DNA from: a virus
Taxonomy: Duplodnaviria > Heunggongvirae > Uroviricota > Caudoviricetes
IMG/VR virus record: IMGVR_UViG_637000261_000005
DNA: 33,575 nucleotides
Strand: one strand, 5' to 3'
The notes below the pieces were generated by a model. The model had not been told where the DNA came from. It searched no databases and saw only the letters and a program-made list of their open reading frames with translations. A program made the position numbers and the translations under genes. Positions 1 to 29,282 of the stretch are shown one piece after another (position 1 is the first letter of the stretch; each line of letters starts with the position of its first letter).

Positions 1-141
1 TTACTGCTTACACTGTAAGAACGCCGCAAACTCCGCTCCCCAGAAGCTCATCCGTATTTCGCACAGCGAACCGTGCAGCATCCAGATGATGAGGATTGCC
101 GTCACGCAGAACGTGATGGCCGTAAGCGATTTTTGCGACAT
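1..141 (-). CDS. Hok/Gef-family type I toxin (46 aa)
   Basis: Translates to MSQKSLTAITFCVTAILIIWMLHGSLCEIRMSFWGAEFAAFLQCKQ: a single hydrophobic helix followed by the SLCE..EFAAFL.CK pattern typical of Hok/HokA-like peptides. The mok/sok-type leader would lie in 142-400. Confidence 0.55.
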   Translation of the reverse strand: MSQKSLTAITFCVTAILIIWMLHGSLCEIRMSFWGAEFAAFLQCKQ

Positions 142-479
142 AGCGCTTGCTCCTTTTTCGGGGAGGCGCTAACCTATCACTTGCTTAGGGTAGACGGTTA
201 GGGCCTCGGTTAAACAAAAATGTTTTCCGGGGCCTTTCCACATCTGGCCTTCAGGTATTCCCTCCGACCATCAGCCGAAAGGCACCCGCGCGTAATCTAT
301 CGCTTTTTTGTTACTCCGGCAATTCTGCTCGTTAATTCTGAGGTAAGGGCAAACTCATCTGATTGTTTCCTCTGTGTGAAGTTGGCAGTTCATGCCACGG
401 TAGACTGGCCCCCTGAATCTCCAGACAACCAGTATCACTTAAATAAGTGATAGTCTAAAAACTAGTCATTGGAGTACAG

Positions 480-845
480 ATGATTGATGTCTTAGGGCCG
501 GAGAAACGCAGACGGCGTACCACACAGGAAAGGATCGCAATTGTTCAGCAGAGCTTTGAACCGGGGATGACGGTCTCCCTCGTTGCCCGGCAACATGGTG
601 TAGCAGCCAGCCAGTTATTTCTCTGGCGTAAGCAATACCAGGAAGGAAGTCTTACTGCTGTGGCCGCCGGAGAACAGGTTGTTCCTGCCTCTGAACTTGC
701 TGCCGCCATGAAGCAGATTAAAGAACTCCTGCGCCTGCTCGGCAAGAAAACGATGGAAAATGAACTCCTCAAAGAAGCCGTTGAATATGGACGGGCAAAA
801 AAGTGGATAGCGCACGCGCCCTTATTGCCCGGGGATGGGGAGTAA
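480..845 (+). CDS. insC: IS2 transposase OrfA (InsC)
   Basis: 121 aa [30 protein letters not shown]..., recognised as IS2 InsC. An A6G slippery motif at about 797-803 supports the -1 frameshift into insD. Confidence 0.9.
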
Positions 846-1708
846 GCTTAGTCAGCCGTTGTCTCCGGGTGTCGCGTGCGCAGTTGCACGTCATTCTCAG
901 ACGAACCGATGACTGGATGGATGGCCGCCGCAGTCGTCACACTGATGATACGGATGTGCTTCTCCGTATACACCATGTTATCGGAGAGCTGCCCACGTAT
1001 GGTTATCGTCGGGTATGGGCGCTGCTTCGCAGACAGGCAGAACTTGATGGTATGCCAGCGATCAATGCCAAACGTGTTTACCGGATCATGCGCCAGAATG
1101 CGCTGTTGCTTGAGCGAAAGCCTGCTGTACCGCCATCGAAACGGGCACATACAGGCAGAGTGGCCGTGAAAGAAAGCAATCAGCGATGGTGCTCTGACGG
1201 GTTCGAGTTCTGCTGTGATAACGGAGAGAGACTGCGTGTCACGTTCGCGCTGGACTGCTGTGATCGTGAGGCACTGCACTGGGCGGTGACTACCGGCGGC
1301 TTCAACAGTGAAACAGTACTGGACGTCATGCTGGGTGCGGTGGAACGCCGCTTCGGCAACGATCTTCCGTCGTCTCCAGTGGAGTGGCTGACGGATAATG
1401 GTTCATGCTACCGGGCTAATGAAACACGCCAGTTCGCCCGGATGTTGGGACTTGAACCGAAGAACACGGCGGTGCGGAGTCCGGAGAGTAACGGAATAGC
1501 AGAGAGCTTCGTGAAAACGATAAAGCGTGACTACATCAGTATCATGCCCAAACCAGACGGGTTAACGGCAGCAAAGAACCTTGCAGAGGCGTTCGAGCAT
1601 TATAACGAATGGCATCCGCATAGTGCGCTGGGTTATCGCTCGCCACGGGAATATCTGCGGCAGCGGGCTTGTAATGGGTTAAGTGATAACAGATGTCTGG
1701 AAATATAG
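803..1708 (+). CDS. insD: IS2 transposase OrfB (InsD), DDE integrase domain
   Basis: 301 aa, recognised as IS2 InsD (…[19 protein letters not shown]…[47 protein letters not shown]…). Confidence 0.9.
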
Positions 1709-1719
1709 GGGCAAATCCA

Positions 1720-1915
1720 ACGGGATGCCCTCTGATGAGTGAATGGGGGAGGCGTGCTTTGAAGTGAATTTGTGGAAGGCTTCCAGTGTTGAGAAACATA
1801 CGCCGCATTCTAGATTGTTACACTGATAATACTTTTGTCTCACGGTGTTTGAATCATTTTCCGGACGACTGGTGCGGATACGGGCAGATGCGCCACAAAG
1901 CGGACAACGGAACAT
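1720..1915 (-). pseudogene. ogr: Ogr/Delta-family zinc-finger late-gene activator, 3' end interrupted by IS2
   Basis: MFRCPLCGASARIRTSR…YYQCNNLECGVCFSTLEAF matches the P2 Ogr CxxC…CxxC zinc-finger pattern. The ORF reads through into the IS2 right end, so the tail [13 protein letters not shown] is IS-derived. RBS AGAGAGG and a TTTAAA-N17-TAGAAT promoter-like element lie upstream at about 1920-1990. Confidence 0.6.
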
Positions 1916-2010
1916 AGCGACCTCTCTTATTGTAGTGCTTACACTATTCTAGGTTGTATTCTCTAAGATTTAAACATGACTTTCTCTATATAATGATTTT
2001 TAGCATTAGT

Positions 2011-2042
2011 TAATAAACGAACGGCACTCTAAGGAGCGCCGT
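2011..2042 (-). terminator. Rho-independent terminator downstream of the 1039-aa gene
   Basis: Minus-strand RNA forms a 9-bp stem (ACGGCGCUC / GAGUGCCGU with one G·U pair) around loop CUUA, followed by UCGUUUAUU. Confidence 0.4.
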
Positions 2043-2050
2043 CAAAGATA

Positions 2051-5000
2051 TTATTCTGATGTCACTCTTTGCGAGTGAGCTATTTTTAAATCAGCGTTTC
2101 CTTCAAATACTATATTCAACTCATAGTTAAGAGTTAGCTTGAATTTATCTGAGTCACTTTTGATATTCTCTGAAGTGACATTTACTAACTTATTATTATC
2201 ATATTCTCTAATAATTAATTTAGTGAAGTAGTTATCCTTTACCACAAGAGAAAATGGTTGATTAACAAATGGTAAGAAGTAAACCTTACGGGTACCGGAT
2301 TCAGTAGTTATGTTCATAGAGCCATCATCATTTTTTCTCATTAGTTCTCTGAGGTTGGGATTATCGAAAAGCATACGATTATATTGCTGAAAGATCTCTT
2401 TACTCATCACAAGAACCAGTTTGCCAGCCAAGTCAGCAGATGATTTTATGTGATCAATCAACATATTGAAATCTTCTATTACGGTATGTTGCGAACAGCC
2501 AGTGCTAAATAAATTTGAAAGTATTATTCTCTGGATGTCCTTGAGAATTAAGTCTGCTTGAATATCACCTTCATTGATATAAGGGATGGATTCTATTCCT
2601 TCGGCATACGGTTCTTTATCTATCTTAATAGATATCTTATGTTTTGTGAAACAATCGCTAGCCTGCTTAAAATCAATAGATTTGAAAAGTGAAAGAGGGA
2701 GCGTTTTCTTGATGCGTTTACGAAGATGTTCTGATGTTTTACGTGCAGTGCTATCTAGTCGATGTACATCTATGGCAGCATCCTGAAGTCTCATATCAAG
2801 ATCTTTCTTTAGCATGTTAATATGCTCTTGAAGCAACTTTCTTAAGTTTTCTTTTTTTGTTTGGAGATCGTCCAATGTTAAAGTCAGCTTGATTTTAGTG
2901 TATTCGATGGAGTTACAAATTTTTGATAATACTCCAATGAGTCGTTGCTTCTCACGATATGTTATATAGTTGTTTTCTATTGCTTCTTTTATTTCTTTTG
3001 ATACGCTATCGTTCTTTTTAGAAAAAATTAATAATAGCTGAACCCATGATTGTTCCATATCAATAAATCCACAGTCAAAAACATTACTGTAAACTCTGCC
3101 CATCACCATGTCTGTTTTATCATAGTCACGTAAACGCCTTGCTAAACTATTCATCCACCCATTGTGCTCCATATTTTCAGACCATGTCCACAGGCAGATT
3201 CTAATTAATATCTTGATTAGTTGGCTTGCATTATCAATTTCTTCAGTGGGAGTTTCATATCCACCGGTTTGGTCAATAAGTTTACCCTCTAAAATAAGTT
3301 TAATGTAATGTGTCATTAGTTTGTCAGAAGTATTGATTCTTGATGTCAGATAAAGACATGTGCATATACGCATGTCAGTCAACGCATTTATGATGGCAAT
3401 ATTGAACCACTCTCTGTCTGAATTGAAGTTTAGTTTTTTGGATATGAAAAAACCCGGGTTAAAAAGCTGGCCTTTGTAACTGTATTTTTCTACCGAATGG
3501 CTGTCAATATTCATTGAGTGCTGCCATCGGTTAATAAGATCGACGGCTGTATCAATAGTAGAAGGATCGCGAGTCTGTGTTGCATCAATAATCATCGATG
3601 GAAGTTCTTGTAGTTGCGTTTTGCAAAATAATTCAAATAAATCTGAATTCTCTGTATTGCAGAAACGAAAGTTTATGCTTTCTTGATATTGCTCCCAAAC
3701 AGTGATATAGGTTCTTAATATACGATTATAACGTGAACGAAGCGAGGCATTTAAGAGTGATTGGTTGTTTCGGAACCATTCTGTTAATATTGACCATTGT
3801 GAACGAGTAATTCCCATATAGATACAAAGTTCATTGCTGATAAGATGTTTTCTATTATTGATAATACGCACTCCGCTCCAAAGACATAATTCAAAAAATC
3901 TTTCAGAAAGATTAATTTTATCCATGGAATTATTTGATATTTTATAAACTTCATCTGAAAACTCATATTGAAAACTCCGTTCAAATAATTCTGTAGTGAT
4001 CAGTAAGAAGTTATTGTTGGTATTATCATCTTGAAAAAAATACAAATCGCAGAGATTATTAAAGTTATTAATTAATGCAGAGATAGCATTGTCAAAACTA
4101 ATGAGATCAGAATCCCGCAGATACATATACGTATCTGCTGTTATAGCCTGCATTGTAAGACTTACGGAAAAATCTCCTCCTTTAATCGGAGCCCTATAAA
4201 AACATTGCTTAAGTATTTTTATTAATAAGCTGTCTGGTTTGATATTTTTAACGCTAAAAAGTATCTTACCCGTGGATTCTGTTTCTTTTGTACGATTATC
4301 ACCAATGACAAATGACGCAAAATGATTCTTCTTTTTTAGTTGGTAATTAATAAGATTAAGAGTAAGTTGAAAAGGACGGTGATATAAACTTAACTCATCT
4401 TCCTTAGAATAACTGCTAGCCACAGATATGTATTCTCCTTTGTAATCGGCTTGCGTGATTTCTAAATTTGAATAGTTATGTTTTTGATAGATAGGGTATA
4501 ACCTAAGCTTGGCTGAGATTTTGTTACAAATATGGGGCATTACTATTTCGAAGGCAATGTATCGCTTTATAATTATTTGCCGTTTTACATCATCAAGAAT
4601 TTCAAGACTCACGATAAAGAACCAAATAGAAAGAACTATGTTTATCAAAAGCCATAATATGCTGATTAGACAAGCTATACCATAAAGATAACTTCCAAAG
4701 ACAGTTTTAATTAGTACACTGAGAAGTATAAATCCTGATAAGAAAAGCCCGCTGAGTCCAGCAAGCATGAATCCTGAGTAACGCTGATAAGCAGTTTGGG
4801 CTATTTTTCTATCTGCCTTTTTTTGGAATAAGACACTTACTAAACCTATAACAAGGGGGTATACAATACCAATAATTGTCAATTGGCCACTTAAAATGGT
4901 TGTTTGCCATTCGGTTAATGAATGCCTAAACGGGAAATAATGTAAAAGATTATTTTTTATAAATAATTCGTTTAAATATCCAACATAAAGTAGTACAAAT

Positions 5001-5170
5001 GAAAAAGCTGATATGCAAAGTACTGATTTAACCGGTGAGGATGTTAATCTTATGATGTTTTTTTCAATAAAATTCCATTTTAAATTCGAATAAAATGGAT
5101 TTTTAACCATTTTATTACGAACATAGTTCTTTGCTAAAATCTCTGTTGCACTTAAAAATTGTCCAATCAT
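2051..5170 (-). CDS. Large (1039 aa) membrane-anchored protein of unknown function; candidate phage-defence/abortive-infection cargo
   Basis: A single uninterrupted ORF in a strongly AT-rich island. Four to five hydrophobic helices lie in about residues 48-200 (VLCISAFSFVLLYVGYL; LTIIGIVYPLVIGLVSVLF; FMLAGLSGLFLSGFILLSVLI; YGIACLISILWLLINIVLSIWFFIVSL), then about 840 aa of N/K/I-rich soluble sequence. I see no Walker A, RT, HNH or other recognisable motif. It has the same orientation as D and ogr. Confidence 0.7.
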   Translation of the reverse strand: MIGQFLSATEILAKNYVRNKMVKNPFYSNLKWNFIEKNIIRLTSSPVKSVLCISAFSFVLLYVGYLNELFIKNNLLHYFPFRHSLTEWQTTILSGQLTIIGIVYPLVIGLVSVLFQKKADRKIAQTAYQRYSGFMLAGLSGLFLSGFILLSVLIKTVFGSYLYGIACLISILWLLINIVLSIWFFIVSLEILDDVKRQIIIKRYIAFEIVMPHICNKISAKLRLYPIYQKHNYSNLEITQADYKGEYISVASSYSKEDELSLYHRPFQLTLNLINYQLKKKNHFASFVIGDNRTKETESTGKILFSVKNIKPDSLLIKILKQCFYRAPIKGGDFSVSLTMQAITADTYMYLRDSDLISFDNAISALINNFNNLCDLYFFQDDNTNNNFLLITTELFERSFQYEFSDEVYKISNNSMDKINLSERFFELCLWSGVRIINNRKHLISNELCIYMGITRSQWSILTEWFRNNQSLLNASLRSRYNRILRTYITVWEQYQESINFRFCNTENSDLFELFCKTQLQELPSMIIDATQTRDPSTIDTAVDLINRWQHSMNIDSHSVEKYSYKGQLFNPGFFISKKLNFNSDREWFNIAIINALTDMRICTCLYLTSRINTSDKLMTHYIKLILEGKLIDQTGGYETPTEEIDNASQLIKILIRICLWTWSENMEHNGWMNSLARRLRDYDKTDMVMGRVYSNVFDCGFIDMEQSWVQLLLIFSKKNDSVSKEIKEAIENNYITYREKQRLIGVLSKICNSIEYTKIKLTLTLDDLQTKKENLRKLLQEHINMLKKDLDMRLQDAAIDVHRLDSTARKTSEHLRKRIKKTLPLSLFKSIDFKQASDCFTKHKISIKIDKEPYAEGIESIPYINEGDIQADLILKDIQRIILSNLFSTGCSQHTVIEDFNMLIDHIKSSADLAGKLVLVMSKEIFQQYNRMLFDNPNLRELMRKNDDGSMNITTESGTRKVYFLPFVNQPFSLVVKDNYFTKLIIREYDNNKLVNVTSENIKSDSDKFKLTLNYELNIVFEGNADLKIAHSQRVTSE

Positions 5171-5260
5171 GAATTACTCTTCTATAAAGTGTGGGTCTAC
5201 TAACTAAACTGGAACTTTTACTATTGAGTCATATTCCCTTGGACGGGATGGACTGTGAAG

Positions 5261-5266
5261 ATTATA
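5261..5266 (-). promoter_or_regulatory. Candidate sigma70 -10 hexamer (TATAAT on minus strand) about 90 bp upstream of the 1039-aa ORF
   Basis: The plus strand reads ATTATA at 5261-5266; there is no convincing -35. The position is approximate. Confidence 0.2.
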
Positions 5267-5418
5267 CTTGACTTCCTCTGTCATGTGGGAAAAACATCCG
5301 TATTATTGTTAGCATCTGGTTGATGCCCCAACCTCTGACATCTAGTGGGCTGATACATTATCTTTTGTTCTTACTGTCAGTGTAGAAGCACATCTCAAAA
5401 ATAATATTTTTAAGAGAT

Positions 5419-6528
5419 TTATTCTGTTTCTGCTATCCATTCCGGGATTTTTGCTTCAAGTTCAAGCTGCGTGGTAAAGCCGCTGTTATCAATGGTGTGC
5501 TCGGCTTTTGCAATAGTCCAGTCCTGATAATCAATCTCGCTTTTAAAGCCTGTCACTGTGCCATGCATTTCGGGATAGAGTTCTGCACGACCACGCGCCA
5601 GCGTGATGGAGAATGATGCGGCTCCGCGTTGTAGCTGCTGCCACTTTGCCGCCGCTGCGCGTCTTGCTGCCTGCTCGTTCTGATAAGTCTTGCGTAACAC
5701 AAACACGTTGCCTTCCGCACCTTCCATATAGTCGCCTTCCCGACTGCTGCTTTTCTCCTTTTTGGGTTTTGGCGGTTTGCGGCGTTTCACGCTGACTTTT
5801 TTCTTTTTCCCGTAATTAAGATCAAGCCAGTAGGCGCGTACCCCCGTATACGCCTCGCGGTCAGCAATGCGGAACTGATGGCGATCGCCGCTGCTGCGTG
5901 TAATGGCGAACGAGGGCAACGGCTGCCCCTGTGCGTTCACGCCACCACCTGGCATGATGAATAACAGATTGCCGCTTTTTACCGTGGCGATTGCTCCCAG
6001 CATTTCCGCCATGCGCGTAAGAAAGGACATGTCGCTTTCTTCGGTCTGGTCGGCGTGGTCGATTTCGATATCCATCAGCATTTCGCTGATTTGCGGTTTC
6101 AGACCGTACCGATGAGTGATGGCGGATACCACACGCTCAACGGTCACATCATGCCAGGACACCTCACGTTTAACGTTAAATTCATCCCGAAAATCTGCGC
6201 TTCTGGCTGAAACAGTCAGCCTGTCCGGCGGTCCTTCGTGAGCGATTTCATCAACAATGTAAGTGCCTTTTTCTGTCAGCGGTTCCCCTTTCCAGCCAAT
6301 GAGAACCGTCAGACGCGCGCCCCGTGGCGGTAGCTGCAACTGACCATCCGCATCATCCAGCGTGATGGTGAGCTGGTCCGCCTCAAATCCCCGGTTGTCG
6401 GTCAGTTACAGGCTCATCAGGCGCTCCGCCACGCCTGACAGCGTTTTACCCTCCGAGAGAATATCAAAATCCGGCATTTTCACGGGGGCCGTGCCCTGAC
6501 TGAGCAATTGCATGGTGGTGTCGGTCAT
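5419..6528 (-). pseudogene. D: P2 gpD-like tail protein, interrupted by an in-frame TAA at 6406-6408
   Basis: The N-terminal ORF (MTDTTMQLLSQGTAPVKMPDFDILSEGKTLSGVAERLMSL*) and the 306-aa ORF are in the same frame. They are separated only by TAA (plus strand TTA at 6406-6408), and the reading frame is open on both sides. RBS GGGAGGGA lies before the ATG at 6528. The C-terminal part resembles P2 D (…VLIGWKGEPL…GTYIVDEI…). Confidence 0.8.
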
Positions 6529-6685
6529 CTGCTCCCTCCCTGTGCGGCATGGTCGCATGTGCGTGCGGAGGGGGTTACTGCTTTTTGTTGTCGCCGTGGC
6601 GGGAGAACGGCGCAGGGGTGAGATTACGCGCGTGGTGGGTGATGATTGTTGCTGAATCATTTAACGGATACAAGGGGCTGAAGCT

Positions 6686-7870
6686 ATGAGTGAAACTCGT
6701 TTTCATGGTGCCCGTGTTACGGAGAATACCGACCTGGTAACAGCGATTAACGATGTTGATTCCAGCGTTATCGGTATCGTGGCAACGGCGGATGATGCGG
6801 ACGCGAAGCTGTTCCCGCTGAACAAGCCCACACTGCTGACCCGCGTCAATGACGTGCTGGGAAAATGCGGGACAACGGGGACGCTTTATCGTGCGCTTAA
6901 GGCCATCGCAGACCAGGTGAGCACAAAGGTGATCGTCGTTCGCGTGGCTGAACACAAAGAAGAAGACGGAAAGACGCAGGATCAACTGGTTATCGGTGGT
7001 TCTGAGGATGACGGCAGCTATACGGGGATGTATGCGCTGCTTGTTGCAGAGCAGGATGAAAGCATCGGATACCGTCCGCGTATTCTGGCCGCGCCGGAGC
7101 TGGACACGGAGGCGGTAACAAAATCCCTGTGCGTGATTGCAGATAAACTGCGCGCGTTTGTGTATGCCTCATGTCATGGCTGTAACACGATGGCCGAGGC
7201 AATTACCTACCGCCAGAAATTCAACGAACGTGAGGTGATGCTCTTATGGCCGGACTTCATCGCCTACAACCCGAAAAATGGCAAAAACGAAACGTTCCCC
7301 GCGCCTGCCTATGCGTGCGGCCTTCGTGCGTACATTGACCATGAACAGGGATGGCACAAATCGCTGTCCAACGTTCCGGTTAAAAATGTGCTGGGGATGT
7401 CGAGGCATGTGTTCTGGTCGTTGCAGGCCGAAGACAGCGATGCCAACAGCCTCAACGACAAAGAAATCACGACCATTATTCGTCGCAACGGGTTCCGCTT
7501 CTGGGGTAACCGCACACCGGAAACGAACGCCTACATCTTTGAGGTGTATACCCGAACCGCACAGGTGCTGGCTGATTCAATTGCGGAAGCGCAGTTTGAA
7601 ACCATCGACAGTCCACTGACGCCTGCGAATGTGAAGGATGTTATCAGTGCCATCAGGGCAAAACTGGATTCACTGGTGACTGCCGGGAAACTGATTGGCG
7701 CGGAGTGCTGGTATGACGTGGTGGATAACAGCACCACGGATTTACGTCAGGGACGTGTGCGTATTCGCTACAAATATACGCCCGTTCCGCCACTGGAAGA
7801 CATGGAGCTTTACCAGACGTTTACTGATGAATACTTTGAACCCGCATTTGCGGTGCTGGGAGGTGCCTGA
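6686..7870 (+). CDS. FI: Tail sheath protein (P2 gpFI-like)
   Basis: 394 aa with the contractile-sheath family pattern (…NPKNGKNETFPAPAYACGLRAYIDHEQGWHKSLSNVPVKNV…RNGFRFWGNRT…). RBS AAGGGG. Its stop overlaps the FII start (ATGA). Confidence 0.9.
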   Translation: MSETRFHGARVTENTDLVTAINDVDSSVIGIVATADDADAKLFPLNKPTLLTRVNDVLGKCGTTGTLYRALKAIADQVSTKVIVVRVAEHKEEDGKTQDQLVIGGSEDDGSYTGMYALLVAEQDESIGYRPRILAAPELDTEAVTKSLCVIADKLRAFVYASCHGCNTMAEAITYRQKFNEREVMLLWPDFIAYNPKNGKNETFPAPAYACGLRAYIDHEQGWHKSLSNVPVKNVLGMSRHVFWSLQAEDSDANSLNDKEITTIIRRNGFRFWGNRTPETNAYIFEVYTRTAQVLADSIAEAQFETIDSPLTPANVKDVISAIRAKLDSLVTAGKLIGAECWYDVVDNSTTDLRQGRVRIRYKYTPVPPLEDMELYQTFTDEYFEPAFAVLGGA

Positions 7871-8380
7871 TGGCTGTGCCAAAACATCTTCGCTTTTTTA
7901 CGCTGTTTGTGGATGGTGAAAACGAAGTGGGTAATGTGACGTCCGTCACTCTGCCTAAGCTGACGCGCAAAACCGACAGCTACCGGGGTGGTGGCATGAT
8001 GGGTGCGGTAAGTATTGATCTCGGTCTGGACGACTCCGCGCTTGATGCGAGCTTTGTCATGGGGGCGCAGTTCGTGAGCTGTTCCTTAAGTATGGCGGCA
8101 CGATTGACGGCACGCTGCTGCGTTTTGCGGGTGAATACTACACCGATGCAGAAAGCGACCTGTATGAAGTCGAAATGCGCGGACGTGTGACGGAAATTGA
8201 TATGGGGGAAGCCAAACAGGGCGAAGCCACATCACACACTTACGCCATTAAAACACCTACTACAAGCTGAGTGTTAACGATCGCCCGTTGTGGGAGATTG
8301 ACCTGCTGAACTTCATTTACCGGAAGGACGGCAAGGACATTGTGCCCGATCGCATCCGTTCCGCGCTTGGGCTTGGCTGA
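7870..8380 (+). pseudogene. FII: Tail tube protein (P2 gpFII-like) with two frame disruptions
   Basis: Frame 1 (MAVPKHLRFFTLFVDGENEVGNVTSVTLPKLTRKTDSYRGGGMMGAVSIDLGLDDSALDASFVMGAQF) runs to about 8072. It continues in another frame (RELFLKYGGTIDGTLLRFAGEYYTDAESDLYEVEMRGRVTEIDMGEAKQGEATSHTYAIKTP) to about 8257, then in a third frame (YYKLSVNDRPLWEIDLLNFIYRKDGKDIVPDRIRSALGLG*) to 8380. All three pieces resemble P2 FII. Both breaks look like 1-bp deletions (TTCGTG for TTCCGTG; ACACCTAC for ACACCCTAC). Confidence 0.8.
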
Positions 8381-8435
8381 TAAGTAATATGCTGGCGGCG
8401 CAGTGCGTCGCCTCTGACTGAAAAGGAGACAACAG

Positions 8436-8810
8436 ATGAAAGACATCGATACTGAAACCCGGAATAACACCGTGGCGGATAATGTGACGGCAGTTGAGGA
8501 TATGGCTGTCGAACGTGGCGTAAAACTGACCCGACCAATTGAGCGTGGTGCCGAAAAAATCACGTATGTGGAGATCACCGGGGCTATTGAGCAGGCTGGA
8601 TCCCTGCGTGGTCTGTCGCTGTCTGATGTGCTGAATCTGAAAGCGGATACCATGTTCACGCTGTTGCCTCGCGTGACCTCGCCACGACTGGATGAAGTGA
8701 TGATTAAAAAAATGTCGTCACGCGATTTTATTCAGTTGTGCGCTGTGGCTGTAAATTTTATGAGCGAGCCAGACTCTGGCGCGAAGAGCGTGCAGGAGAC
8801 GGCAGCGTAA
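8436..8810 (+). CDS. E: Tail assembly chaperone (P2 gpE-like)
   Basis: 124-aa ORF with RBS AAGGAG, in the conserved position between the tube and tape-measure genes. Confidence 0.7.
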   Translation: MKDIDTETRNNTVADNVTAVEDMAVERGVKLTRPIERGAEKITYVEITGAIEQAGSLRGLSLSDVLNLKADTMFTLLPRVTSPRLDEVMIKKMSSRDFIQLCAVAVNFMSEPDSGAKSVQETAA

Positions 8811-8923
8811 TCACCCTGGTGTGCTTTGAGCACATCGAAGATCTGGTGGCGGATATTGCCGCCATTTTTAACTGGTCGCCCGCCGAAATCTTCATGATGA
8901 CGCCCGGCGAAGTGGTTAGCTGA
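8436..8923 (+). CDS. E': E+E' extended chaperone made by programmed -1 frameshift
   Basis: The -1 frame is open from 8708 to the TGA at 8921-8923, overlapping the E 3' end. An A7 run at 8706-8712 sits exactly at the start of the overlap and is the likely slippery site. This arrangement is conserved in P2-like phages. Confidence 0.5.
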
Positions 8924-8924
8924 C

Positions 8925-11768
8925 GTGAGCGGGCGGCACTTCGTAGCGGGAATGCAGACAATGAAGACTCTTGATATCCGGGTCGCTTTCAGCGCCGTTG
9001 ACAGGCTGACCCGGCCTGCCGAAAACGCCCGCCGCCTGATGGGGCAGTTTGGTGACTCCATCCAGCGAACGCAGGGGGCGATCAAAAATCTCGAGCGTCA
9101 GGCGCGATCATTTGAGCGCGCCCGTGACGCTGTCAGTAAAGCGGATGCTGGCATCGTGAAAGCACGACGCCAGCTTAACGCCCTTAATCAGTTACAACGC
9201 ACGGGTACAGTGCTCAGCGAAAAACAACAAAAGCTGATGCAGCAGTTAAGCACCCGGCTTGAACGCCTGAATGAATCGCGCACACGGGAAATTCAGAAAA
9301 TGCGGGAGCTTGGCGGAGAGCTGAAACGCCACGGCATTTCCCTGACAGGTAGCGATAACACCATCCAGCAGGCCATCAGACGCACCGAACAGTACAACAA
9401 CCAGCTTGAACGCGAACGGCAGGCGCTTGCGCGTGTAACACGGGCGCGTGAGCGGTATTCGCGCGCGCAGGAAACAGCGGGAAAACTGAAAACAGGTGGT
9501 GCGCTGGCAATTGGTGCGGCAGCGGCGGGCGGCTATGCTGCCGGGCGTTTTTTGCAGCCTGCGATCGGGTTCGGCAAAGAGATGTCCCGCGTTCAGGCAC
9601 TGACGCGAATCGACCAGAACAGCCCGCAGTTTAAGGCGCTGCGTGAGCAGGCGTTAAAACTTGGCTCTGAAACGCAGTTCACCGCAGGCGATGCCGCCAG
9701 TGGACAGGCATTTCTTGCAATGGCTGGCTTTACACCACAGGCCATTCAGGCTGCGCTCCCTGGCGTACTGAGCATGGCAACGGCTGGCGGTATGGACCTC
9801 GGTGAGACGGCGGATATTGGCTCAAATATTCTGACGCAGTTCGGTCTTTCTGCTGACCAGATGGACCGGGTCGGCGACACACTCACCGCAGCGTTTACCC
9901 GTACCAACACTGACCTTCGCGCACTGGGTGAAACCATGAAATATGCAGGTCCGGTGGCGGGTAAGCTGGGAATATCTCTGGAGCAGGCCGCAGCGATGGC
10001 GGGCGTGCTGGCGAATATGGGTATCAGGGGGAGTGATGCTGGTACGGCAATGCGTGCCAGCCTGGCTCGTCTGGCATCACCGCCAAAGGCGGCAGCAGAG
10101 GCGCTGAAAGAGCTTGGCGTGTCTGTCTCGGATGCCGGGGGCAAAATGCGCCCGATGGAGGATGTGCTGGCTGACCTTTATAAAGCTACCCGCAAATACG
10201 GGGAAGTTGACCGGGTATCGTTCTTTAAGGACATTGCCGGAGAAGAGGCTTTCACATCATTTATGGCCCTCGTTGATGCGGCAGGTGACGGCTCCTTACC
10301 CAAACTGAGAAAAGAACTTGAAGGCGCGCGCGGTGAGGCTGAACGCACGGCAAAGGTTATGGCCAACAACCTTGACGGCGATCTGAAATCACTCAGCAGT
10401 GCATGGGAAGGGTTGCGCATCCGCATTGCAGATCTGATTGACGGTCCGCTGCGTTCTGTCACGCAGTGGCTCACGCGTGTGGTATCAAAGGTGACGGCGC
10501 TGGCGCAGGCCCATCCCGCACTGACGCGCCAGCTACTGATTGCAGGCGGTGCATTGCTGGCAATGACTGCAACGGTTGGCTCGTTGTCGCTGGCTATTGG
10601 TGTGCTTGCTGGCCCGCTGGCAAAACTGCGTCTTGGTTTTTCCCTCCTGACCGGATCAATGAATGCTGTCAGGGTTCTGCCAGCACTATGGGGAATGGTG
10701 ACGGGTTCCGTTTCTTTACTGGGAGGCGCTATCGGGGCGTTGTTCAGTCCGGTTGGTCTTATCGTGGCTGCGCTTGCCGGAGCTGCCGTTCTTATCTGGA
10801 AATACTGGGATCCCATCAGGGCATTTTTTGCCGGGGTGTTCAGCGGGATTATGGAAAGGCTGACCCCGTTGCGCGAAACCTTTGAACGGTTTGGTCCTGT
10901 TTTTGACGCAATCGGGAGTGGGATCAGCCAGGTGTTTAACTGGTTTAAATCGCTGCTGTCACCGATGGAGTCCAGCAAGGAAACTCTGGATAAATGTACC
11001 AGTGCTGGCGAGATATTCGGTAACGTTCTTGGCGGTGCGTTACAACTTGTTCTGACACCTGCAAAAATGTTGCTGGATACGCTGGCGTGGATACTTGAAA
11101 AGCTTGGTGTGCTTCCGGATGAAGCGGAAAGGGCGCGCAAGAAAATCGAAGACGCACAGCGTGCGGCCATTCTTCAGGACAAGGTTGCCTTGCTTCAGGG
11201 GGATCTGGCGAAAATCAATCCGCCGAAGCCTGTGGAAAATGGCAATGGCACCGGAGGTGATAACCCCAAAGACAATAAACCGCTCACAGACAGCAATACC
11301 GGTACGCTGCGCAGACTCAGCAAAATTGCTGATAACACAGGTAAGCTGGTTGAGGAGACGAAAAAACGCATTGGCCCCGGCGATATTGTCTTTAAAAACC
11401 TGCCCCGAGCACTTGCTGTTCGTGGGGAGTGGCAGGAGCGGAAGATTGCGCAGGTCAGTAAGCCTGCCCCCGCAATTAATATCACACCCGTGGTTCCGGC
11501 TCCGCTGCCTCCGGCGCTGGTCCCTGTTGTTGCAGCCAGCTCCCGCCCGGTGGCGGAGGCTATACGATCTCCAGTGGCATCAGTTCCTGTAACTTCCCGT
11601 AACCGGGAGCCTGTTGCCTTCGGATTTGGTGGTGAAATTCATGTTCATCTGCATAACGTTGTTACGCAGAATCCCCGCGAACTGGCGAAACTGGTCGGTG
11701 AAATGGTCAGGGCAGAAATGGAACGGCGCGCCCGTGCCGGGCGTGGCTGTTTTTACGATAAAGATTGA
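8925..11768 (+). CDS. T: Tail tape measure protein (P2 gpT-like)
   Basis: 947 aa, GTG start directly after the E' stop. It is coiled-coil and Ala/Gly-rich with hydrophobic central segments, as is typical of tape measure proteins. Confidence 0.9.
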   Translation: MSGRHFVAGMQTMKTLDIRVAFSAVDRLTRPAENARRLMGQFGDSIQRTQGAIKNLERQARSFERARDAVSKADAGIVKARRQLNALNQLQRTGTVLSEKQQKLMQQLSTRLERLNESRTREIQKMRELGGELKRHGISLTGSDNTIQQAIRRTEQYNNQLERERQALARVTRARERYSRAQETAGKLKTGGALAIGAAAAGGYAAGRFLQPAIGFGKEMSRVQALTRIDQNSPQFKALREQALKLGSETQFTAGDAASGQAFLAMAGFTPQAIQAALPGVLSMATAGGMDLGETADIGSNILTQFGLSADQMDRVGDTLTAAFTRTNTDLRALGETMKYAGPVAGKLGISLEQAAAMAGVLANMGIRGSDAGTAMRASLARLASPPKAAAEALKELGVSVSDAGGKMRPMEDVLADLYKATRKYGEVDRVSFFKDIAGEEAFTSFMALVDAAGDGSLPKLRKELEGARGEAERTAKVMANNLDGDLKSLSSAWEGLRIRIADLIDGPLRSVTQWLTRVVSKVTALAQAHPALTRQLLIAGGALLAMTATVGSLSLAIGVLAGPLAKLRLGFSLLTGSMNAVRVLPALWGMVTGSVSLLGGAIGALFSPVGLIVAALAGAAVLIWKYWDPIRAFFAGVFSGIMERLTPLRETFERFGPVFDAIGSGISQVFNWFKSLLSPMESSKETLDKCTSAGEIFGNVLGGALQLVLTPAKMLLDTLAWILEKLGVLPDEAERARKKIEDAQRAAILQDKVALLQGDLAKINPPKPVENGNGTGGDNPKDNKPLTDSNTGTLRRLSKIADNTGKLVEETKKRIGPGDIVFKNLPRALAVRGEWQERKIAQVSKPAPAINITPVVPAPLPPALVPVVAASSRPVAEAIRSPVASVPVTSRNREPVAFGFGGEIHVHLHNVVTQNPRELAKLVGEMVRAEMERRARAGRGCFYDKD

Positions 11769-11780
11769 GGAGTCATGGCC

Positions 11781-12269
11781 ATGATGATGATCTACGGCAT
11801 GTTTGTTTTTGAGCTGCGCACGCTGCCGCATCAGCAGTTACAGCAAAACAAAAGCTGGCGGCATGTGAAAAATGAACGCGTTAACCGTTCAGCAAGCTGG
11901 CAGTATATCGGTGCAGGTGATGATCGCATCGTTCTTTCTGGTGTGCTTTATCCTGAAATTACAGGTGGCGAAGTGTCGCTGTCGCTGCTGACTACGCAGG
12001 CGTATACAGGACGACCCTGGCCTTTGATTGATGGCGTCGGGCAGATTTACGGCATGTATGTCCTGACTGAAACGAATACGACCCGCTCCGAGTTTGATCG
12101 CTACGGTAAGGCGAAAAAGATAGAATTTTCACTGACTCTTGAACGCTGTGATGAGGATTTGCGGGAGCGCCTGCAATCCTCATCGTTCAGTGATATGCTG
12201 TCCGGCTTCAAAGATAAGGTGACATCATCTCTTAACAGCGCGGCCAGTTCAGTTAAAGGGCTGTTCTGA
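11781..12269 (+). CDS. U: Tail protein (P2 gpU-like)
   Basis: MMMIYGMFVFELRTLPHQQLQQNKSWRH… resembles P2 U. RBS GAGGAG is 8 nt before the ATG at 11781 (the ORF track starts at 11775). Confidence 0.85.
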   Translation: MMMIYGMFVFELRTLPHQQLQQNKSWRHVKNERVNRSASWQYIGAGDDRIVLSGVLYPEITGGEVSLSLLTTQAYTGRPWPLIDGVGQIYGMYVLTETNTTRSEFDRYGKAKKIEFSLTLERCDEDLRERLQSSSFSDMLSGFKDKVTSSLNSAASSVKGLF

Positions 12270-12277
12270 TTTAACAC

Positions 12278-12308
12278 AAAAACCGCTAATGGTCAGATTA
12301 GCGGTTTT
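12278..12308. terminator. Bidirectional rho-independent terminator between the convergent U and invertase genes
   Basis: Perfect palindrome AAAACCGCTAAT-GGTCAG-ATTAGCGGTTTT flanked by T-rich runs on both strands. The invertase stop codon (12298-12300) lies within the right arm. Confidence 0.5.
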
Positions 12309-12897
12309 CATTTTCCTGAGTCTGCCCGGTTGTTTCTTCAGTCTGTATATCGCCTACAGGGTGATAACGATAAATCGTCGATGTGCCAATGCCGTAAATT
12401 ATTGCCAGTTGTTTTCTGTCGTGCCCGTTTTTGATTAGCCTTGCTATTTGCTCATGCTGTTCTTTTGTCAGCTTCGGTCGACGTCCGCCTGTGCGCCCCC
12501 TTGCGCGCGCTGCCGCCAGCCCGGCCAGTGTACGTTCAACAATTAATTCACGTTCCATTTCAGCCAGGGCACCCATCACGTGGAAGAAAAAACGCCCCAT
12601 TGGAGAAGATGTGTCTATGCTGTCGGTCAGACTGCGAAAATTAATCCCTCGCTCCCGTAGTTCCCCGACGAGAGAAATCAGATGTTTCATGCTTCGCCCG
12701 AGGCGATCCAGTTTCCAGACAACCAGCGTGTCACCTTTTTGAAGGCGCTTTAAAGCGCGTTTTAATCCCGGTCGGTCTGTCTTTGTCCCGCTTAATTTAT
12801 CTTCAAATATTTGTTCACATCCTGCACAAACAAGAGCGTTTTGTTGCAGGTCTGTATTCTGGTCATTTGTTGATACCCTTACATAGCCAATCAGCAC
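12298..12897 (-). CDS. pin: Serine DNA invertase of the Gin/Pin/Cin/Hin family
   Basis: (M)LIGYVRVSTNDQNTDLQQNALVCAGCEQIFEDKLSGTKTDRPGLKRALKRLQKGDTLVVWKLDRLGRSMKHLISLVGELRERGINFRSLTDSIDTSSPMGRFFFHVMGALAEMERELIVERT… is near-identical in pattern to Gin/Pin. The likely start is GTG at 12897 with RBS GGGAGA; the ORF track extends to a TTG at 12915. Confidence 0.9.
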   Translation of the reverse strand: MLIGYVRVSTNDQNTDLQQNALVCAGCEQIFEDKLSGTKTDRPGLKRALKRLQKGDTLVVWKLDRLGRSMKHLISLVGELRERGINFRSLTDSIDTSSPMGRFFFHVMGALAEMERELIVERTLAGLAAARARGRTGGRRPKLTKEQHEQIARLIKNGHDRKQLAIIYGIGTSTIYRYHPVGDIQTEETTGQTQENENR

Positions 12898-12951
12898 ACT
12901 GAATCTCCCGTCCAAAAGCGCAAATCATGCCATGCAGGCCAGAAACGGCCA

Positions 12952-12977
12952 TTATTTAAAACCTCGGTTTACGAGAA
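12952..12977. other. gix/hix-like 26-bp crossover site (right end of invertible segment)
   Basis: TTATTTAAAACC-TC-GGTTTACGAGAA compared with the gix consensus TTATCCAAAACC-TC-GGTTTACAGGAA. It lies at the start of the alternative fibre coding segment. Confidence 0.7.
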
Positions 12978-13673
12978 CTCGGCACAAGCGGGGAGAAAAT
13001 ACCGTTACTCAGTACAGCGAATACCTGGACCAATCGACAAACATTCAGCGGTGGCCTTTCTGGGGAACTGTCCGGCAATGCCGCTACTGCAACAAAGCTG
13101 AAAACAGCACGAAAAATTGCTGGAGTTGGTTTTGATGGTTCTAGCGATATCTCAATTAGTGCCAAAAATGTCAATGCATTTGCACTCCGACAAACAGGTA
13201 ATACTGTTAATGGTGATACATCCGTTGGATGGAATTGGGATAGTGGTGCATATAACGCCCTGATTGGTGGTGCATCTGCATTAATTCTTCACTTTAATAT
13301 AAATGCTGGTAGCTGTCCTGCCGTACAATTCCGTGTGAATTATAAAAATGGTGGCATTTCCTACAGGTCGGCTCGTGATGGTTATGGGGTTGAATTACGT
13401 TGGTCAGATTTCTATACCACGACACGAAAACCTTCAGCGGGAGATGTTGGTGCATATACGCGGGCAGAATGTAACTCAATGTTTATTACAGGTATTCGCC
13501 TTGGCGGTCTGTCATCTGTTCAGACATGGAATGGTCCCGGCTGGTCTGACAGGTCAGGTTATGTCGTTACGGGTTCAGTTAACGGAAACCGTGATGAATT
13601 AATTGATACAACACAGGCAAGGCCAATTCAGTATTGCATTAATGGGACGTGGTATAACGCGGGGAGTATTTAA
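12978..13673 (+). CDS. Alternative tail-fibre C-terminal segment (promoterless, expressed only after inversion)
   Basis: The open frame begins inside the gix site with no start codon (…NLGLRELGTSGEKIPLLSTANTWTNRQTFSGGLSGELSGNAATATKLKTARKIAGVGFDGSSDISISAKNVNAF…QYCINGTWYNAGSI*). This is the classic variable receptor-binding-domain pattern, and the end parallels the H C-terminus (…[14 protein letters not shown]). Confidence 0.7.
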   Translation, partial: LGTSGEKIPLLSTANTWTNRQTFSGGLSGELSGNAATATKLKTARKIAGVGFDGSSDISISAKNVNAFALRQTGNTVNGDTSVGWNWDSGAYNALIGGASALILHFNINAGSCPAVQFRVNYKNGGISYRSARDGYGVELRWSDFYTTTRKPSAGDVGAYTRAECNSMFITGIRLGGLSSVQTWNGPGWSDRSGYVVTGSVNGNRDELIDTTQARPIQYCINGTWYNAGSI

Positions 13674-14766: not shown

Positions 14767-14769
14767 AAT

Positions 14770-28589: not shown

Positions 28590-28628
28590 GCAGGGCGATG
28601 TGCGATTATCGCCCTGGTTTGAGGGGGA

Positions 28629-29219: not shown

Positions 29220-29282
29220 TAAGTCGTTCTCCTTGTTTATGTTCTGAGGTGGAGAGCAGGGCGAACTCGCCCTGATGTTGTG

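What the first reader, a model, noticed from the sequence alone, without database searches (positions are those of the whole stretch)
1916..5418. AT-rich cargo island between D and ogr encoding a single 1039-aa membrane-anchored protein of no recognisable family
In P2-like phages D is normally followed directly by ogr. Here a 3.5-kb island of strikingly low G+C is wedged between them. By eye it is roughly 30% G+C against more than 50% in the flanking tail genes; this is an estimate, not a computed value. The island carries one long ORF (2051-5170, minus) with its own -10-like element (about 5261-5266) and a downstream hairpin terminator (2011-2042). The protein has 4-5 predicted TM helices in residues about 48-200 and then about 840 aa of cytoplasmic sequence. 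I see no Walker A, RT, nuclease or other familiar signature. Single-gene, membrane-tethered proteins in prophage moron positions are typical of abortive-infection or defence effectors. The D-ogr junction is not one of the two classical P2 hotspots (Z/fun and tin/old). Both the gene and the location may therefore be undescribed.
Basis: partly seen in the sequence, partly recalled or inferred. Interest (0 to 1): 0.85.

Follow-up and report, generated by a model that had tools for sequence, protein, structure and literature searches.

The report
Membrane-anchored capsid-like prophage cargo protein
A decaying P2-like prophage carries, between its tail gene D and ogr, a single foreign gene for a large membrane protein of an unnamed but widespread family. 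The protein's tail end is predicted to fold like a phage capsid protein, and its relatives sit among anti-phage defence genes, so it is a good untested candidate for a new kind of phage defence.

Summary
A 3.46-kb island (window 1961-5418, G+C 0.33 against 0.53 elsewhere) lies exactly after the stop codon of gene D. It carries one ORF (2051-5170, minus strand, 1039 aa) with a TATAAT box, a Shine-Dalgarno-like site and a hairpin terminator.

The protein matches nothing in Pfam, NCBIfam, PADLOC-DB v2 or PDB sequences, and nothing meaningful in PHROGs. The database names 'MFS transporter' and 'chromate transporter' are spurious.

It belongs to a large unnamed family: 501 clusters at 50% identity and 377 PLSDB plasmids. 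Members are always standalone. They occur in a P4-like satellite hotspot, an ICE, IncF plasmids and chromosomal islands, next to TIR, RES, DUF3800 and ATPase genes. In three loci the gene sits between hsdS and hsdR of a type I R-M operon.

Architecture:
- Four TM helices, by far the best-conserved part.
- An alpha-solenoid.

The D-ogr junction is a real variable hotspot, occupied in about 35% of sampled E. coli junctions. It is only loosely covered by the literature.

Best reading: a new single-gene membrane-effector defence candidate. Function is untested.

The parts
1961..5418 (.). Low-G+C cargo island inserted between the stop codon of gene D and the D-ogr spacer
   Evidence: G+C is 0.331 against 0.534 for the rest of the window. 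Boundaries come from alignment to the empty D-ogr junction of E. coli UTI89. The same island is present at >=98.6% identity in only 5 of 5426 complete E. coli genomes and in 8 IMG/VR contigs.
2051..5170 (-). Single ORF of 1039 aa, the only gene of the island
   Evidence: The chance of such an open frame is about 1e-36. A 100% identical protein in the collection (P0001) represents a cluster of 692 member sequences, mostly Shigella and E. coli.
4604..5029 (-). Membrane module: four TM helices (residues 48-66, 90-115, 133-154, 160-189). The conserved core is residues 85-195 (nt 4586-4918).
   Evidence: Hydropathy and the positive-inside rule. AlphaFold2 helices H46-66, H85-114, H134-158 and H160-190. 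Residues 85-195 are 64% identical to the distant clade, against 17-24% for every other region. Near-invariant in 109 family members: Q96, P105, V107, Y128, G138, S140, L144, W173, N177, F184.
4181..4585 (-). Membrane-proximal alpha/beta region (residues ~196-330)
   Evidence: AlphaFold2 secondary structure: H194-224, then short strands and helices. Poorly conserved. No fold assignment was obtained.
2699..4180 (-). Central alpha-helical solenoid (residues ~331-824) with the conserved cytoplasmic residues W492-E493-x-W495, D544, W549, N595, D599, R657 and G691-R692-x-Y694
2066..2698 (-). C-terminal alpha/beta domain (residues ~825-1035) with a predicted HK97-type capsid/encapsulin fold
5261..5266 (-). 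Perfect -10 hexamer TATAAT upstream of the ORF (no good -35)
   Evidence: Read directly from the sequence. It was not called as a full promoter by the consensus scan.
5357..5386 (-). Alternative promoter-like site TCTACA-18-GATAAT
   Evidence: Promoter-like sites in the region are not clearly above the shuffle expectation (23 found, 17.1 +/- 4.1 expected), so this is a consensus match only.
5177..5182 (-). Shine-Dalgarno-like GAAGAG, 6 nt before the ATG at 5170
   Evidence: Read.
2020..2043 (-). Intrinsic-terminator-like hairpin 8 nt after the stop codon (10-bp stem, 6 G-C pairs, 4-nt loop, tail CGTTTATTAA)
5419..6660 (-). Flank: gene D (late control/tail protein), with an in-frame stop at 6406-6408 in this window
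   Evidence: Translation gives RLMSL*LTDNRGF, against SLSLTDNRGF in UTI89. Annotated as 'phage late control D' or 'VgrG/Pvc8 family' in E. coli genomes.
1720..1915 (-). Flank: 5' part of ogr (Ogr/Delta zinc-finger late activator), cut by IS2 (401-1719). The ogr 3' end and a Hok/Gef gene lie in 1-400.
   Evidence: BLAST of the window against E. coli VG38-53E1: window 1-400 matches L001 19605-20004 at 100%, and 1720 onward continues at L001 20001. Annotation. IS2 ORFs.

Best explanation
The island is a horizontally acquired, self-contained, single-gene cargo in a variable hotspot of P2-like prophages. It encodes a member of a large, so far unnamed family of inner-membrane proteins that most likely act as one-protein anti-phage (abortive-infection-type) systems.

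Proposed mechanism:
- The strongly conserved four-helix membrane module is the effector. When several copies come together it would open or disturb the inner membrane.
- The long cytoplasmic part is the sensor and switch. It consists of an alpha-solenoid carrying a conserved cluster (WExW, D..W, N..D, R, GRxY), then a fast-evolving C-terminal domain with a capsid-protein (HK97) fold.
- The capsid-like domain is proposed to engage a phage head-assembly component (major capsid protein, scaffold, portal or prohead protease), or to be driven into capsomer-like oligomers by it. That would couple late-stage phage assembly to clustering of the membrane modules and loss of membrane potential before progeny are completed.

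Shown here: the island, its boundaries, the single ORF and its expression signals, the four TM helices, the conservation pattern, the size and distribution of the family, the neighbourhoods, and the predicted fold similarity.

Inferred: the defence function, which part is effector and which is sensor, the trigger, and the outcome for the cell.
For: 1. Cargo and hotspot. The low-G+C insert lies exactly at the D stop codon. In a spread sample of 60 of 1205 E. coli records, 54 showed both flanks joined. Of these, 35 had D abutting ogr and 19 carried unrelated cargo: DUF3800, DUF2971, GmrSD, PIN, ParA, YecA, ComF and hypotheticals.

2. Standalone gene in defence-type neighbourhoods on different mobile elements:
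- P4-like satellite hotspot with HNH, SRAP, FRG and DUF3800.
- ICE with an SMC/AAA_15 ATPase, HEPN-RES and Mrr.
- Serratia island DUF3800-HNH-[gene]-x-TIR.
- IncF plasmids with HsdR, an S-4TM effector, an AAA ATPase, VapBC, RES and DUF3800.
- Plasmid-like contigs next to a CAP12-type TIR.

3. Embedding in R-M operons. In Aliikangiella, Psychromonas and one IMG/VR contig the gene lies between hsdS and hsdR of a type I R-M operon. PrrC and DarTG2 occupy this position, and the 'guilt-by-embedding' approach uses it (PMC12255303; 10.1101/2024.01.29.577857). Of 133 neighbouring ORFs from 18 loci, the commonest Pfam and PADLOC families are type I R-M subunits.

4. Conservation. The TM2-TM4 core is 64% identical across clades that share only 17-24% elsewhere. 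The C-terminal domain is the most divergent part at 17%. This pattern fits a conserved effector joined to a sensor under an arms race.

6. From general knowledge (not tested here): several defence proteins are triggered by major capsid proteins, including Lit, CapRel-SJ46 and F-plasmid PifA.
Against: - No phenotype is available. Association with defence genes was judged without a formal background rate.
- There is no match to any of the 5027 PADLOC-DB v2 models. No catalytic or nucleotide-binding motif was found, so there is no biochemical handle.
- The sequence-level link to capsids is not significant on its own: hhalign probability 5-12%, and no PHROG capsid hit among 31 C-terminal domains.
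- An HK97 fold could serve simply as an oligomerisation platform, as in encapsulins, with no role in sensing.
- The host prophage has its own HK97-fold capsid protein, which would have to avoid triggering the system.
- The cysteine that is near-invariant in the C-terminal domain across the 28-sequence alignment is arginine in this window's protein.
Confidence: 0.45

Rival explanations
1. Direct assembly poison rather than abortive infection. The membrane-tethered capsid-like domain co-assembles with, or caps, the capsomers or procapsids of an infecting phage. This sequesters head assembly at the membrane and blocks progeny without killing the cell. The TM module would then be only an anchor.
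For: - HK97-fold C-terminal domain.
- Membrane anchoring.
- Rapid divergence of the C-terminal domain.
- The same defence-type contexts as in the best explanation.
Against: The TM2-TM4 core is the most conserved part, with invariant polar residues inside the helices (Q96, S140, N177). That is more than a passive anchor would need. One decoy per cell membrane is stoichiometrically weak against hundreds of capsid subunits, unless it acts at nucleation.
Confidence: 0.15
2. Superinfection exclusion at the inner membrane. The protein blocks genome injection or the ejection machinery of incoming phages, as Imm/Sp- or Sie-type prophage proteins do. The cytoplasmic part would bind ejected phage proteins or DNA.
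For: - The gene is prophage-encoded, membrane-inserted and standalone, with its own promoter-like and terminator signals.
- Prophage morons commonly encode such functions (general knowledge).
Against: - Known exclusion proteins are small. Here about 850 aa are cytoplasmic.
- The family is as common on plasmids, ICEs, satellites and R-M operons of marine bacteria as in prophages. This fits a general intracellular sensor better than a phage-specific entry block.
- A capsid fold has no obvious role at injection.
Confidence: 0.12
3. Not anti-phage at all. It would be an accessory membrane protein that serves the mobile element or host in another way: an addiction or toxin-like module, a factor in competition between plasmids or mobile elements, an envelope-stress or transport function, or a domesticated capsid-derived compartment or anchoring protein.
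For: - It is very frequent on conjugative plasmids (377 PLSDB records, 216 predicted conjugative).
- It lies next to colicin, partition and toxin-antitoxin genes.
- No defence model matches.
- Databases label it a transporter.
Against: - The transporter labels have no support. There is no MFS or chromate-transporter Pfam hit at E <= 10, and only four TM helices.
- There is no conserved partner gene such as an antitoxin in the island or across contexts.
- Embedding between hsdS and hsdR and repeated adjacency to TIR, RES, HNH, Mrr and DUF3800 genes point to defence islands.
Confidence: 0.2

Closest known systems
P2 prophage morons in defence hotspots (old, tin, Z/fun; systems of Rousset 2022 PMC9122126 and Vassallo 2022 PMC9519451; 'third hotspot' of 10.1101/2024.10.15.618418)
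   Same: - It is low-G+C foreign cargo wedged between conserved P2 core genes.
- It has its own promoter-like and terminator signals.
- The site has variable occupancy and different cargo in related prophages.
   Different: - It sits at the D-ogr junction, not at gpA-gpQ or Z/fun. This site is covered only loosely by the 'tail protein to CI' hotspot description.
- It has no sequence relation to any of those systems (PADLOC).
Membrane-effector abortive-infection modules (RexB, Kiwa KwaA, CBASS S-4TM/Cap15-type effectors, Rst_2TM_1TM_TIR)
   Same: The logic would be the same: a small bundle of TM helices acts as the killing or depolarising part, coupled to a cytoplasmic sensing part. This protein also has four TM helices and a large cytosolic domain.
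   Different: - It matches none of their PADLOC or NCBIfam models.
- Effector and sensor are fused in one 1039-aa chain.
- No second messenger, nucleotide-binding or enzyme domain was found.
Capsid-triggered defences (Lit/Gol, CapRel-SJ46, F-plasmid PifA); from my own knowledge, not tested here
   Same: - The trigger logic would be the same if the capsid-like domain engages head proteins.
- PifA is also plasmid-borne, is membrane-associated and causes membrane leakage.
   Different: - Those sensors are not themselves capsid-fold proteins.
- No sequence similarity was found.
- The trigger of this protein is unknown.
HK97-fold proteins: phage major capsid proteins (T4 gp24, P2 gpN) and encapsulins
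   Same: - There is a weak collinear motif match, IGGxPV(Y/F)xxPF.
   Different: - There is no significant sequence similarity.
- The domain is fused behind 820 residues that include four TM helices.
- The gene is not part of a head gene module.
- The domain is at the small end of the size range for the fold.
- Shell formation is unlikely for a membrane-tethered chain.
Genes embedded in type I R-M operons between hsdS and hsdR (PrrC; DarTG2 in EPEC, PMC12255303; PADLOC 'guilt-by-embedding' candidates, 10.1101/2024.01.29.577857)
   Same: Homologues occupy exactly this position in three loci.
   Different: - It has no anticodon-nuclease, ABC-ATPase or DarT/DarG domain.
- It is not among the PDC models of PADLOC-DB v2.
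- The copy in this window is not R-M associated.

Membership tests
MFS transporter (name given by PGAP/NCBI to this protein) | Match to MFS profiles (Pfam MFS_1, Sugar_tr and related) | tested here: not met
   No Pfam or NCBIfam family matches at E <= 10.
MFS transporter (name given by PGAP/NCBI to this protein) | Twelve TM helices in two six-helix bundles | tested here: not met
   Hydropathy and the AlphaFold2 model show only four TM helices, within residues 48-189. About 850 residues are soluble.
Known or candidate defence families in PADLOC-DB v2.0.0 | Profile match to any of the 5027 models | tested here: not met
   No families at E <= 10. Newer DefenseFinder and PADLOC releases could not be run.
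Anti-phage defence system (functional class) | Recurrent location in defence islands or hotspots of mobile elements, including embedding in known systems | tested here: met
   The gene or its homologues were found in these places:
- a P2 hotspot;
- a P4-like satellite hotspot;
- an ICE;
- IncF plasmid islands;
- a Serratia island with TIR, HNH and DUF3800;
- between hsdS and hsdR in three loci.
Sources. The assessment is qualitative. No background rate was computed.
Anti-phage defence system (functional class) | Protection of cells or populations against phage infection | not testable with these tools
   This needs cloning and phage challenge.
P2-type prophage moron / hotspot cargo | Insert between conserved core genes that abut each other in related prophages, with different cargo in others | tested here: met
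   Empty site in UTI89 with a 42-nt D-ogr spacer. In the spread sample, 35 junctions were empty and 19 occupied, with at least 9 cargo types.
P2-type prophage moron / hotspot cargo | Deviant composition and own transcription signals | tested here: met
   G+C 0.33 against 0.53. A TATAAT box, a Shine-Dalgarno-like site and a terminator hairpin are present. The promoter is a consensus match only.
HK97-fold capsid/encapsulin superfamily | HK97 fold (E-loop hairpin, spine helix, P and A domains) | tested here: met
   [not shown]
HK97-fold capsid/encapsulin superfamily | Sequence-profile membership (Pfam or PHROG capsid families) | tested here: not met
   No Pfam hit. No capsid PHROG for any of 31 C-terminal domains. 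hhalign against the P2 capsid profile gives P 0.0024, probability 12%.
HK97-fold capsid/encapsulin superfamily | Assembly into closed shells; gene located in a head-morphogenesis or cargo-enzyme operon | tested here: not met
   The gene stands alone and far from the head genes in every context. Shell assembly itself cannot be tested here.
PrrC-type R-M-embedded guard | Position between hsdS and hsdR | tested here: met
   Met in loci L036, L038 and L026. Not met for the copy in this window.
PrrC-type R-M-embedded guard | ABC-ATPase N domain plus anticodon-nuclease C domain | tested here: not met
   No Walker A motif. No Pfam or PADLOC match.

The most novel reading that the evidence does not exclude
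A widespread, previously unrecognised class of one-protein immunity. A phage capsid (HK97) domain has been captured by bacteria and their mobile elements, fused through an alpha-solenoid to a conserved four-helix membrane effector, and used as molecular bait. The assembling heads of an infecting phage would recruit or oligomerise the capsid mimic. This would cluster the membrane modules into a pore (abortive infection) or poison head assembly at the membrane.
Probability: 0.2. Interest if true: 0.9.

Novelty: new variant of a known kind. Interest (0 to 1): 0.72.

Why it matters
- If the protein is a defence system, it adds a new, abundant family to the bacterial immune repertoire. The family has 501 clusters at 50% identity across Gammaproteobacteria and at least one Desulfobacterota genome. 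One homologue is indexed in 996 blocks of the assembly collection. It is present on 377 PLSDB plasmids, including large conjugative IncF resistance plasmids of E. coli. Current defence-annotation profiles miss it, and genome pipelines mislabel it as a transporter.
- A virus-derived capsid fold reused as the variable end of a membrane-anchored host protein would be a new example of viral parts recruited for immunity. It suggests a concrete, testable trigger: head assembly.
- The D-ogr junction is a frequently occupied cargo site of E. coli P2-like prophages. It holds GmrSD, PIN, DUF3800, ComF-type and unknown genes, and could be mined like the gpA-gpQ and Z/fun hotspots.

Tried and rejected
Searches that found nothing:
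- Pfam, NCBIfam and PADLOC on the full protein: no hits at E <= 10.
- PHROGs on the full protein: one meaningless hit at E 0.015.
- Pfam on 8 distant family members: nothing above noise.
- PDB sequence search with the single protein, the 109-sequence profile and the C-terminal profile: only noise at E > 0.09.
- tblastn against 50,697 GenBank phage records: no match. The gene is therefore not in sequenced free phages in that set.
- PHROG scan of 31 diverse C-terminal domains for recurrent capsid families: none.
- Rfam on the island: nothing.
- Extra small ORFs in the island, as a possible partner or antitoxin: none above 32 aa.
- Literature and accession searches for the family: nothing in full text and nothing in the supplements of the guilt-by-embedding preprint. 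Rousset 2022, Vassallo 2022 and Moura de Sousa 2026 do not describe it.

Ideas rejected:
- The 'MFS transporter' and 'chromate transporter' annotations. The protein has four TM helices and no profile match.
- A Cys-His catalytic dyad in the C-terminal 'YICH' motif. The His is absent in the enterobacterial clades, and the Cys is Arg in this window's protein.

Technical problems:
- The genome scan with the 109-sequence alignment failed for lack of a conserved stretch, and was redone with the 28-sequence alignment.

Full report
**1. The observation**

The composition profile shows G+C falling from 0.47-0.58 in the flanks to 0.28-0.38 between about 1950 and 5400. Computed exactly, the island 1961-5418 has G+C 0.331 and the ORF 0.328 (GC3 0.297). 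Gene D has 0.546, the FI-U tail block 0.547, and the window without the island 0.534.

The ORF 2051-5170 on the minus strand is open for 1039 codons. With this base composition a stop is expected every 13 codons. The chance of an open frame of this length is about 1e-36.

No other ORF above 32 aa and no Rfam family (E <= 0.1, window 1700-5700) lies in the island. It is a one-gene island.

I aligned the window to an empty D-ogr junction in E. coli UTI89, where D and ogr are separated by 42 nt. Homology on the D side resumes at the D stop codon (5419-5421). On the ogr side it ends about 45 nt upstream of the ogr ATG (about 1960). The foreign DNA is therefore about 1961-5418, inserted right behind D.

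The expression signals are as follows.
- The consensus scan calls another site at 5386-5357. It finds no more promoter-like sites in the region than in shuffles (23 against 17 +/- 4).
- A GAAGAG Shine-Dalgarno-like site lies 6 nt before the ATG.
- A 10-bp G+C-rich hairpin with a T-rich tail lies at 2043-2020, 8 nt after the stop codon.

**2. State of the surrounding prophage**

The window is collinear with a P2-like prophage next to ihfA in E. coli VG38-53E1. Two flanking genes are damaged here.
- An IS2 (401-1719) splits ogr. Window 1-400 holds the ogr 3' end and a Hok/Gef gene.
- D carries an in-frame stop (RLMSL*LTDNRGF) where UTI89 has serine.

The classical gpQ-gpA hotspot (28.2-33.5 kb) holds an Ead/Ea22-like gene and a StbB/ParM partition system. 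The ParM gene is cut by an IS3-family element, and another IS lies further on. None of these matches PADLOC.

The 90%-identity cluster of the cargo protein has 692 member sequences, and the members read are from Shigella boydii, sonnei, dysenteriae and flexneri and from E. coli. This fits an IS-riddled Shigella-type genome. The 1039-aa gene itself is intact.

**3. The junction is a real hotspot**

I searched 5426 complete E. coli genomes with 1721-5900.
- 1202 genomes carry the flanks, but only 5 carry the island, at 98.6-99.9% identity.
- In a spread sample of 60 records, 54 showed both flanks joined.
- Of these, 35 had D abutting ogr (span about 717 nt).
- The other 19 carried cargo: this gene, DUF3800, DUF2971, GmrSD, PIN-domain, ParA, YecA, ComF plus a hypothetical, and several hypotheticals.
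- Inserts longer than about 2.6 kb could not be joined by the tool, so occupancy is a lower bound.

The literature covers this site only loosely.
- Rousset 2022 treats only gpA-gpQ.
- Vassallo 2022 adds Z/fun.
- Moura de Sousa 2026 lists gpA-gpQ, int-att, int-primase, 'downstream of GpL' and a hotspot within the tail genes.

The location is real, common and only loosely described.

**4. The protein family**

Pfam, NCBIfam and PADLOC-DB v2 give nothing for the protein even at E <= 10. PHROGs gives one noise hit. PDB sequences give nothing, and GenBank phages give nothing.

Homology searches nevertheless find a large family.
- A close clade (50-71% identity) occurs in Erwinia, Pantoea and metagenomes.
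- A distant clade (about 27% identity, 1030-1069 aa) is widespread in Enterobacteriaceae.
- 377 PLSDB plasmids carry a relative, 216 of them predicted conjugative.
- An exhaustive profile search finds 501 clusters at 50% identity with E <= 1e-3, nearly all full length at 1030-1150 aa.
- A species-level genome scan adds Pseudoalteromonas, Shewanella, Psychromonas, Alteromonas, Bermanella, Aliikangiella, Vibrio, Oceanisphaera, Psychrobacter and Desulforhopalus.
- Eight distant members also lack any Pfam domain.

The names given by sources are 'MFS transporter', 'chromate transporter' and 'nicotinate-nucleotide adenylyltransferase'. None has support.

**5. Architecture**

Hydropathy and an AlphaFold2 model (pLDDT 80, pTM 0.67) give four TM helices: 48-66, 90-115, 133-154 and 160-189. 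Positive charges lie on the N-terminal segment, the 116-132 loop and the post-TM4 segment. Both ends are therefore cytoplasmic.

Conservation by region is striking. Residues 85-195 are 64% identical between the window protein and the distant clade, whereas every other region is 17-24% identical. The C-terminal 209 residues are lowest at 17%.

In 109 members reaching down to 14% identity, the near-invariant positions are as follows.
- Membrane module: Q96, P105, V107, Y128, G138, S140, L144, W173, N177, F184.
- Cytoplasmic part: F359, W492, E493, W495, D544, W549, N595, D599, R657, G691, R692, Y694, F829.

There is no Walker A motif.

**6. A capsid-like C-terminal domain**

Three structural searches point the same way.
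- Foldseek against PDB: phage capsid proteins rank 1, 3, 4, 6 and 7. These are the NF5 capsid 9m66_A (E 2.8e-4, 214 columns, TM-score 0.44 on the target), PhiTE, phage S6 (two chains) and a capsid-forming PICI.
- Foldseek against BFVD: the named hits among the top 50 are almost all major capsid or head proteins. Probability is about 1.0, E ranges from 7e-5 to 5e-2, and TM-score on the target is 0.3-0.47.

All of these are HK97-fold proteins.

The last 285 residues modelled alone, with 31 diverse sequences, give pLDDT 87.7 and pTM 0.82. The order of elements is: two long helices, a beta-hairpin, a 22-residue helix, beta-alpha-beta-alpha, then several strands ending in two long ones. This is the HK97 order of E-loop, spine helix, A domain and P-domain strands.

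The tools do not print aligned residues. Assigning the match to residues about 825-1035 is my inference. It is the only beta-rich stretch of the right length.

At the sequence level there is only a hint.
- hhalign of the C-terminal profile against the prophage's own P2-family capsid protein aligns 126 collinear columns (P 0.007, probability 5%).
- Against a capsid profile it aligns the motif IGGxPV(Y/F)xxPF...L(V/I)(T/S)..F (P 0.0024, probability 12%).
- No capsid PHROG is hit by any of 31 C-terminal domains.

I rate the fold assignment as probable (about 0.8), homology to capsids as possible, and any functional meaning as inference.

**7. Genomic contexts**

The gene is always standalone. No partner is conserved across contexts.

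| Context | Neighbouring genes |
|---|---|
| 59% homologue in a P4-like satellite (P4 alpha-type primase, Phage_ASH) | HNH, SRAP, FRG, DUF3800 |
| Homologue in an ICE | SMC/AAA_15 ATPase, HEPN-RES, Mrr |
| Serratia chromosomal island | DUF3800-HNH-[gene]-x-TIR |
| IncF plasmids pETN48 and pEC881_1 | HsdR, an S-4TM effector pair, AAA ATPases, VapBC, RES, DUF3800, colicin genes |
| Close-clade members on plasmid-like contigs | CAP12-type TIR protein, SRAP, umuDC, ParA |
| Aliikangiella marina, Psychromonas aquatilis, one IMG/VR contig | hsdM-hsdS-[gene]-hsdR |

Among 133 neighbouring ORFs from 18 loci, type I R-M subunits are the commonest families, followed by integrases.

The site between hsdS and hsdR is a recognised place for embedded defence systems such as DarTG2 (PMC12255303). 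[quoted passage not shown] This family is not among that study's PADLOC candidates.

**8. Interpretation**

The best-supported reading is a single-protein defence candidate.
- The conserved four-helix membrane module would be the effector.
- The solenoid with its conserved cluster would be the switch.
- The fast-evolving capsid-like domain would be the sensing or oligomerising end.

The capsid-bait mechanism is a hypothesis drawn from the fold and the conservation pattern. It also draws on the known habit of defence proteins to use capsid proteins as triggers (Lit, CapRel, PifA; my own knowledge).

The rivals are a non-lethal assembly poison, an injection block, and a non-defence accessory function. 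The refuting experiments are listed above.

**9. Novelty and score**

The kind of thing is known: prophage-hotspot cargo, and a membrane effector plus sensor. The family, its architecture and the capsid-fold domain are, as far as my searches reach, undescribed. The family is abundant on clinically relevant plasmids. The function is untested, and the fold evidence rests on predictions with moderate scores.

I rate it a new variant of a known kind, interest 0.72. The capsid-bait reading would deserve about 0.9 if true, and I give it a probability of about 0.2.

Noticed in passing
window 401-1719 (IS2), 1-400 and 1720-1915: An IS2 (InsC 480-845, InsD 803-1708) is inserted into ogr. The 3' end of ogr and a Hok/Gef family gene lie on the other side, in 1-400. 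The late activator of this prophage is therefore disrupted.
   Followed up: yes
window 6406-6408, within gene D (5419-6660, minus strand): Gene D has an in-frame stop codon (RLMSL*LTDNRGF) where the UTI89 prophage has serine. Separately, PGAP annotates only the last 266 codons of D in both VG38-53E1 and UTI89, although the long frame is open in UTI89. That looks like an annotation quirk.
   Followed up: partly
window 6686-12269 (FI-FII-E-T-U, plus strand) against D (minus strand); 12298-12915; 13676-14209; 14238-14846: The FI-U tail block is oriented opposite to D, diverging from it across about 25 nt. The same arrangement is seen in E. coli VG38-53E1 and UTI89, so it is a lineage trait and not P2's order. 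Next to it lie a DNA invertase (Resolvase+HTH_7) and two opposed tail-fibre-assembly genes. These look like an invertible host-range segment at the Z/fun position.
   Followed up: partly
window 28200-33575: The classical gpQ-gpA (old/tin) hotspot holds an Ead/Ea22-like gene, a StbB-like gene and a ParM gene truncated by an IS3-family element (30213-31417), followed by another IS (32169-33382). It is a partition system, not a defence system, and nothing there matches PADLOC.
   Followed up: partly
E. coli D-ogr junctions; L007, L009/L010, L013-L015, L017: DUF3800-domain genes keep turning up. They are alternative cargo at the same D-ogr junction in many E. coli prophages, including O104:H4. They also lie within a few kb of homologues of the 1039-aa gene in a satellite, a Serratia island and IncF plasmids. 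I did not determine whether this is more than shared defence-island membership.
   Followed up: no
L009 (ENA contig k141_34052), gene at 10001-13123: A 59%-identical homologue of this P2 cargo gene lies in the hotspot of a P4-like satellite. Moura de Sousa 2026 (PMC13586616) reports that P2 and P4 almost never exchange defence genes. This would be a distant example of the same family in both element types.
   Followed up: no
window protein, C-terminal domain, segment TESGTRKVYFLPF (alignment A1): At least 90% of the 28 aligned family members have Cys at this position (GxCxLxF), and distant clades have Y-I-C-H. The window's protein has Arg there. It may be a neutral change or a functional variant.
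   Followed up: no
window 1946-1974 (minus strand): A promoter-like site TTTAAA-17-TAGAAT lies just upstream of ogr. Its -10 is in the conserved D-ogr spacer, and its -35 is inside the inserted island. The insertion may therefore have replaced the -35 of the ogr promoter. In empty sites that -35 position would fall within the 3' end of D.
   Followed up: no
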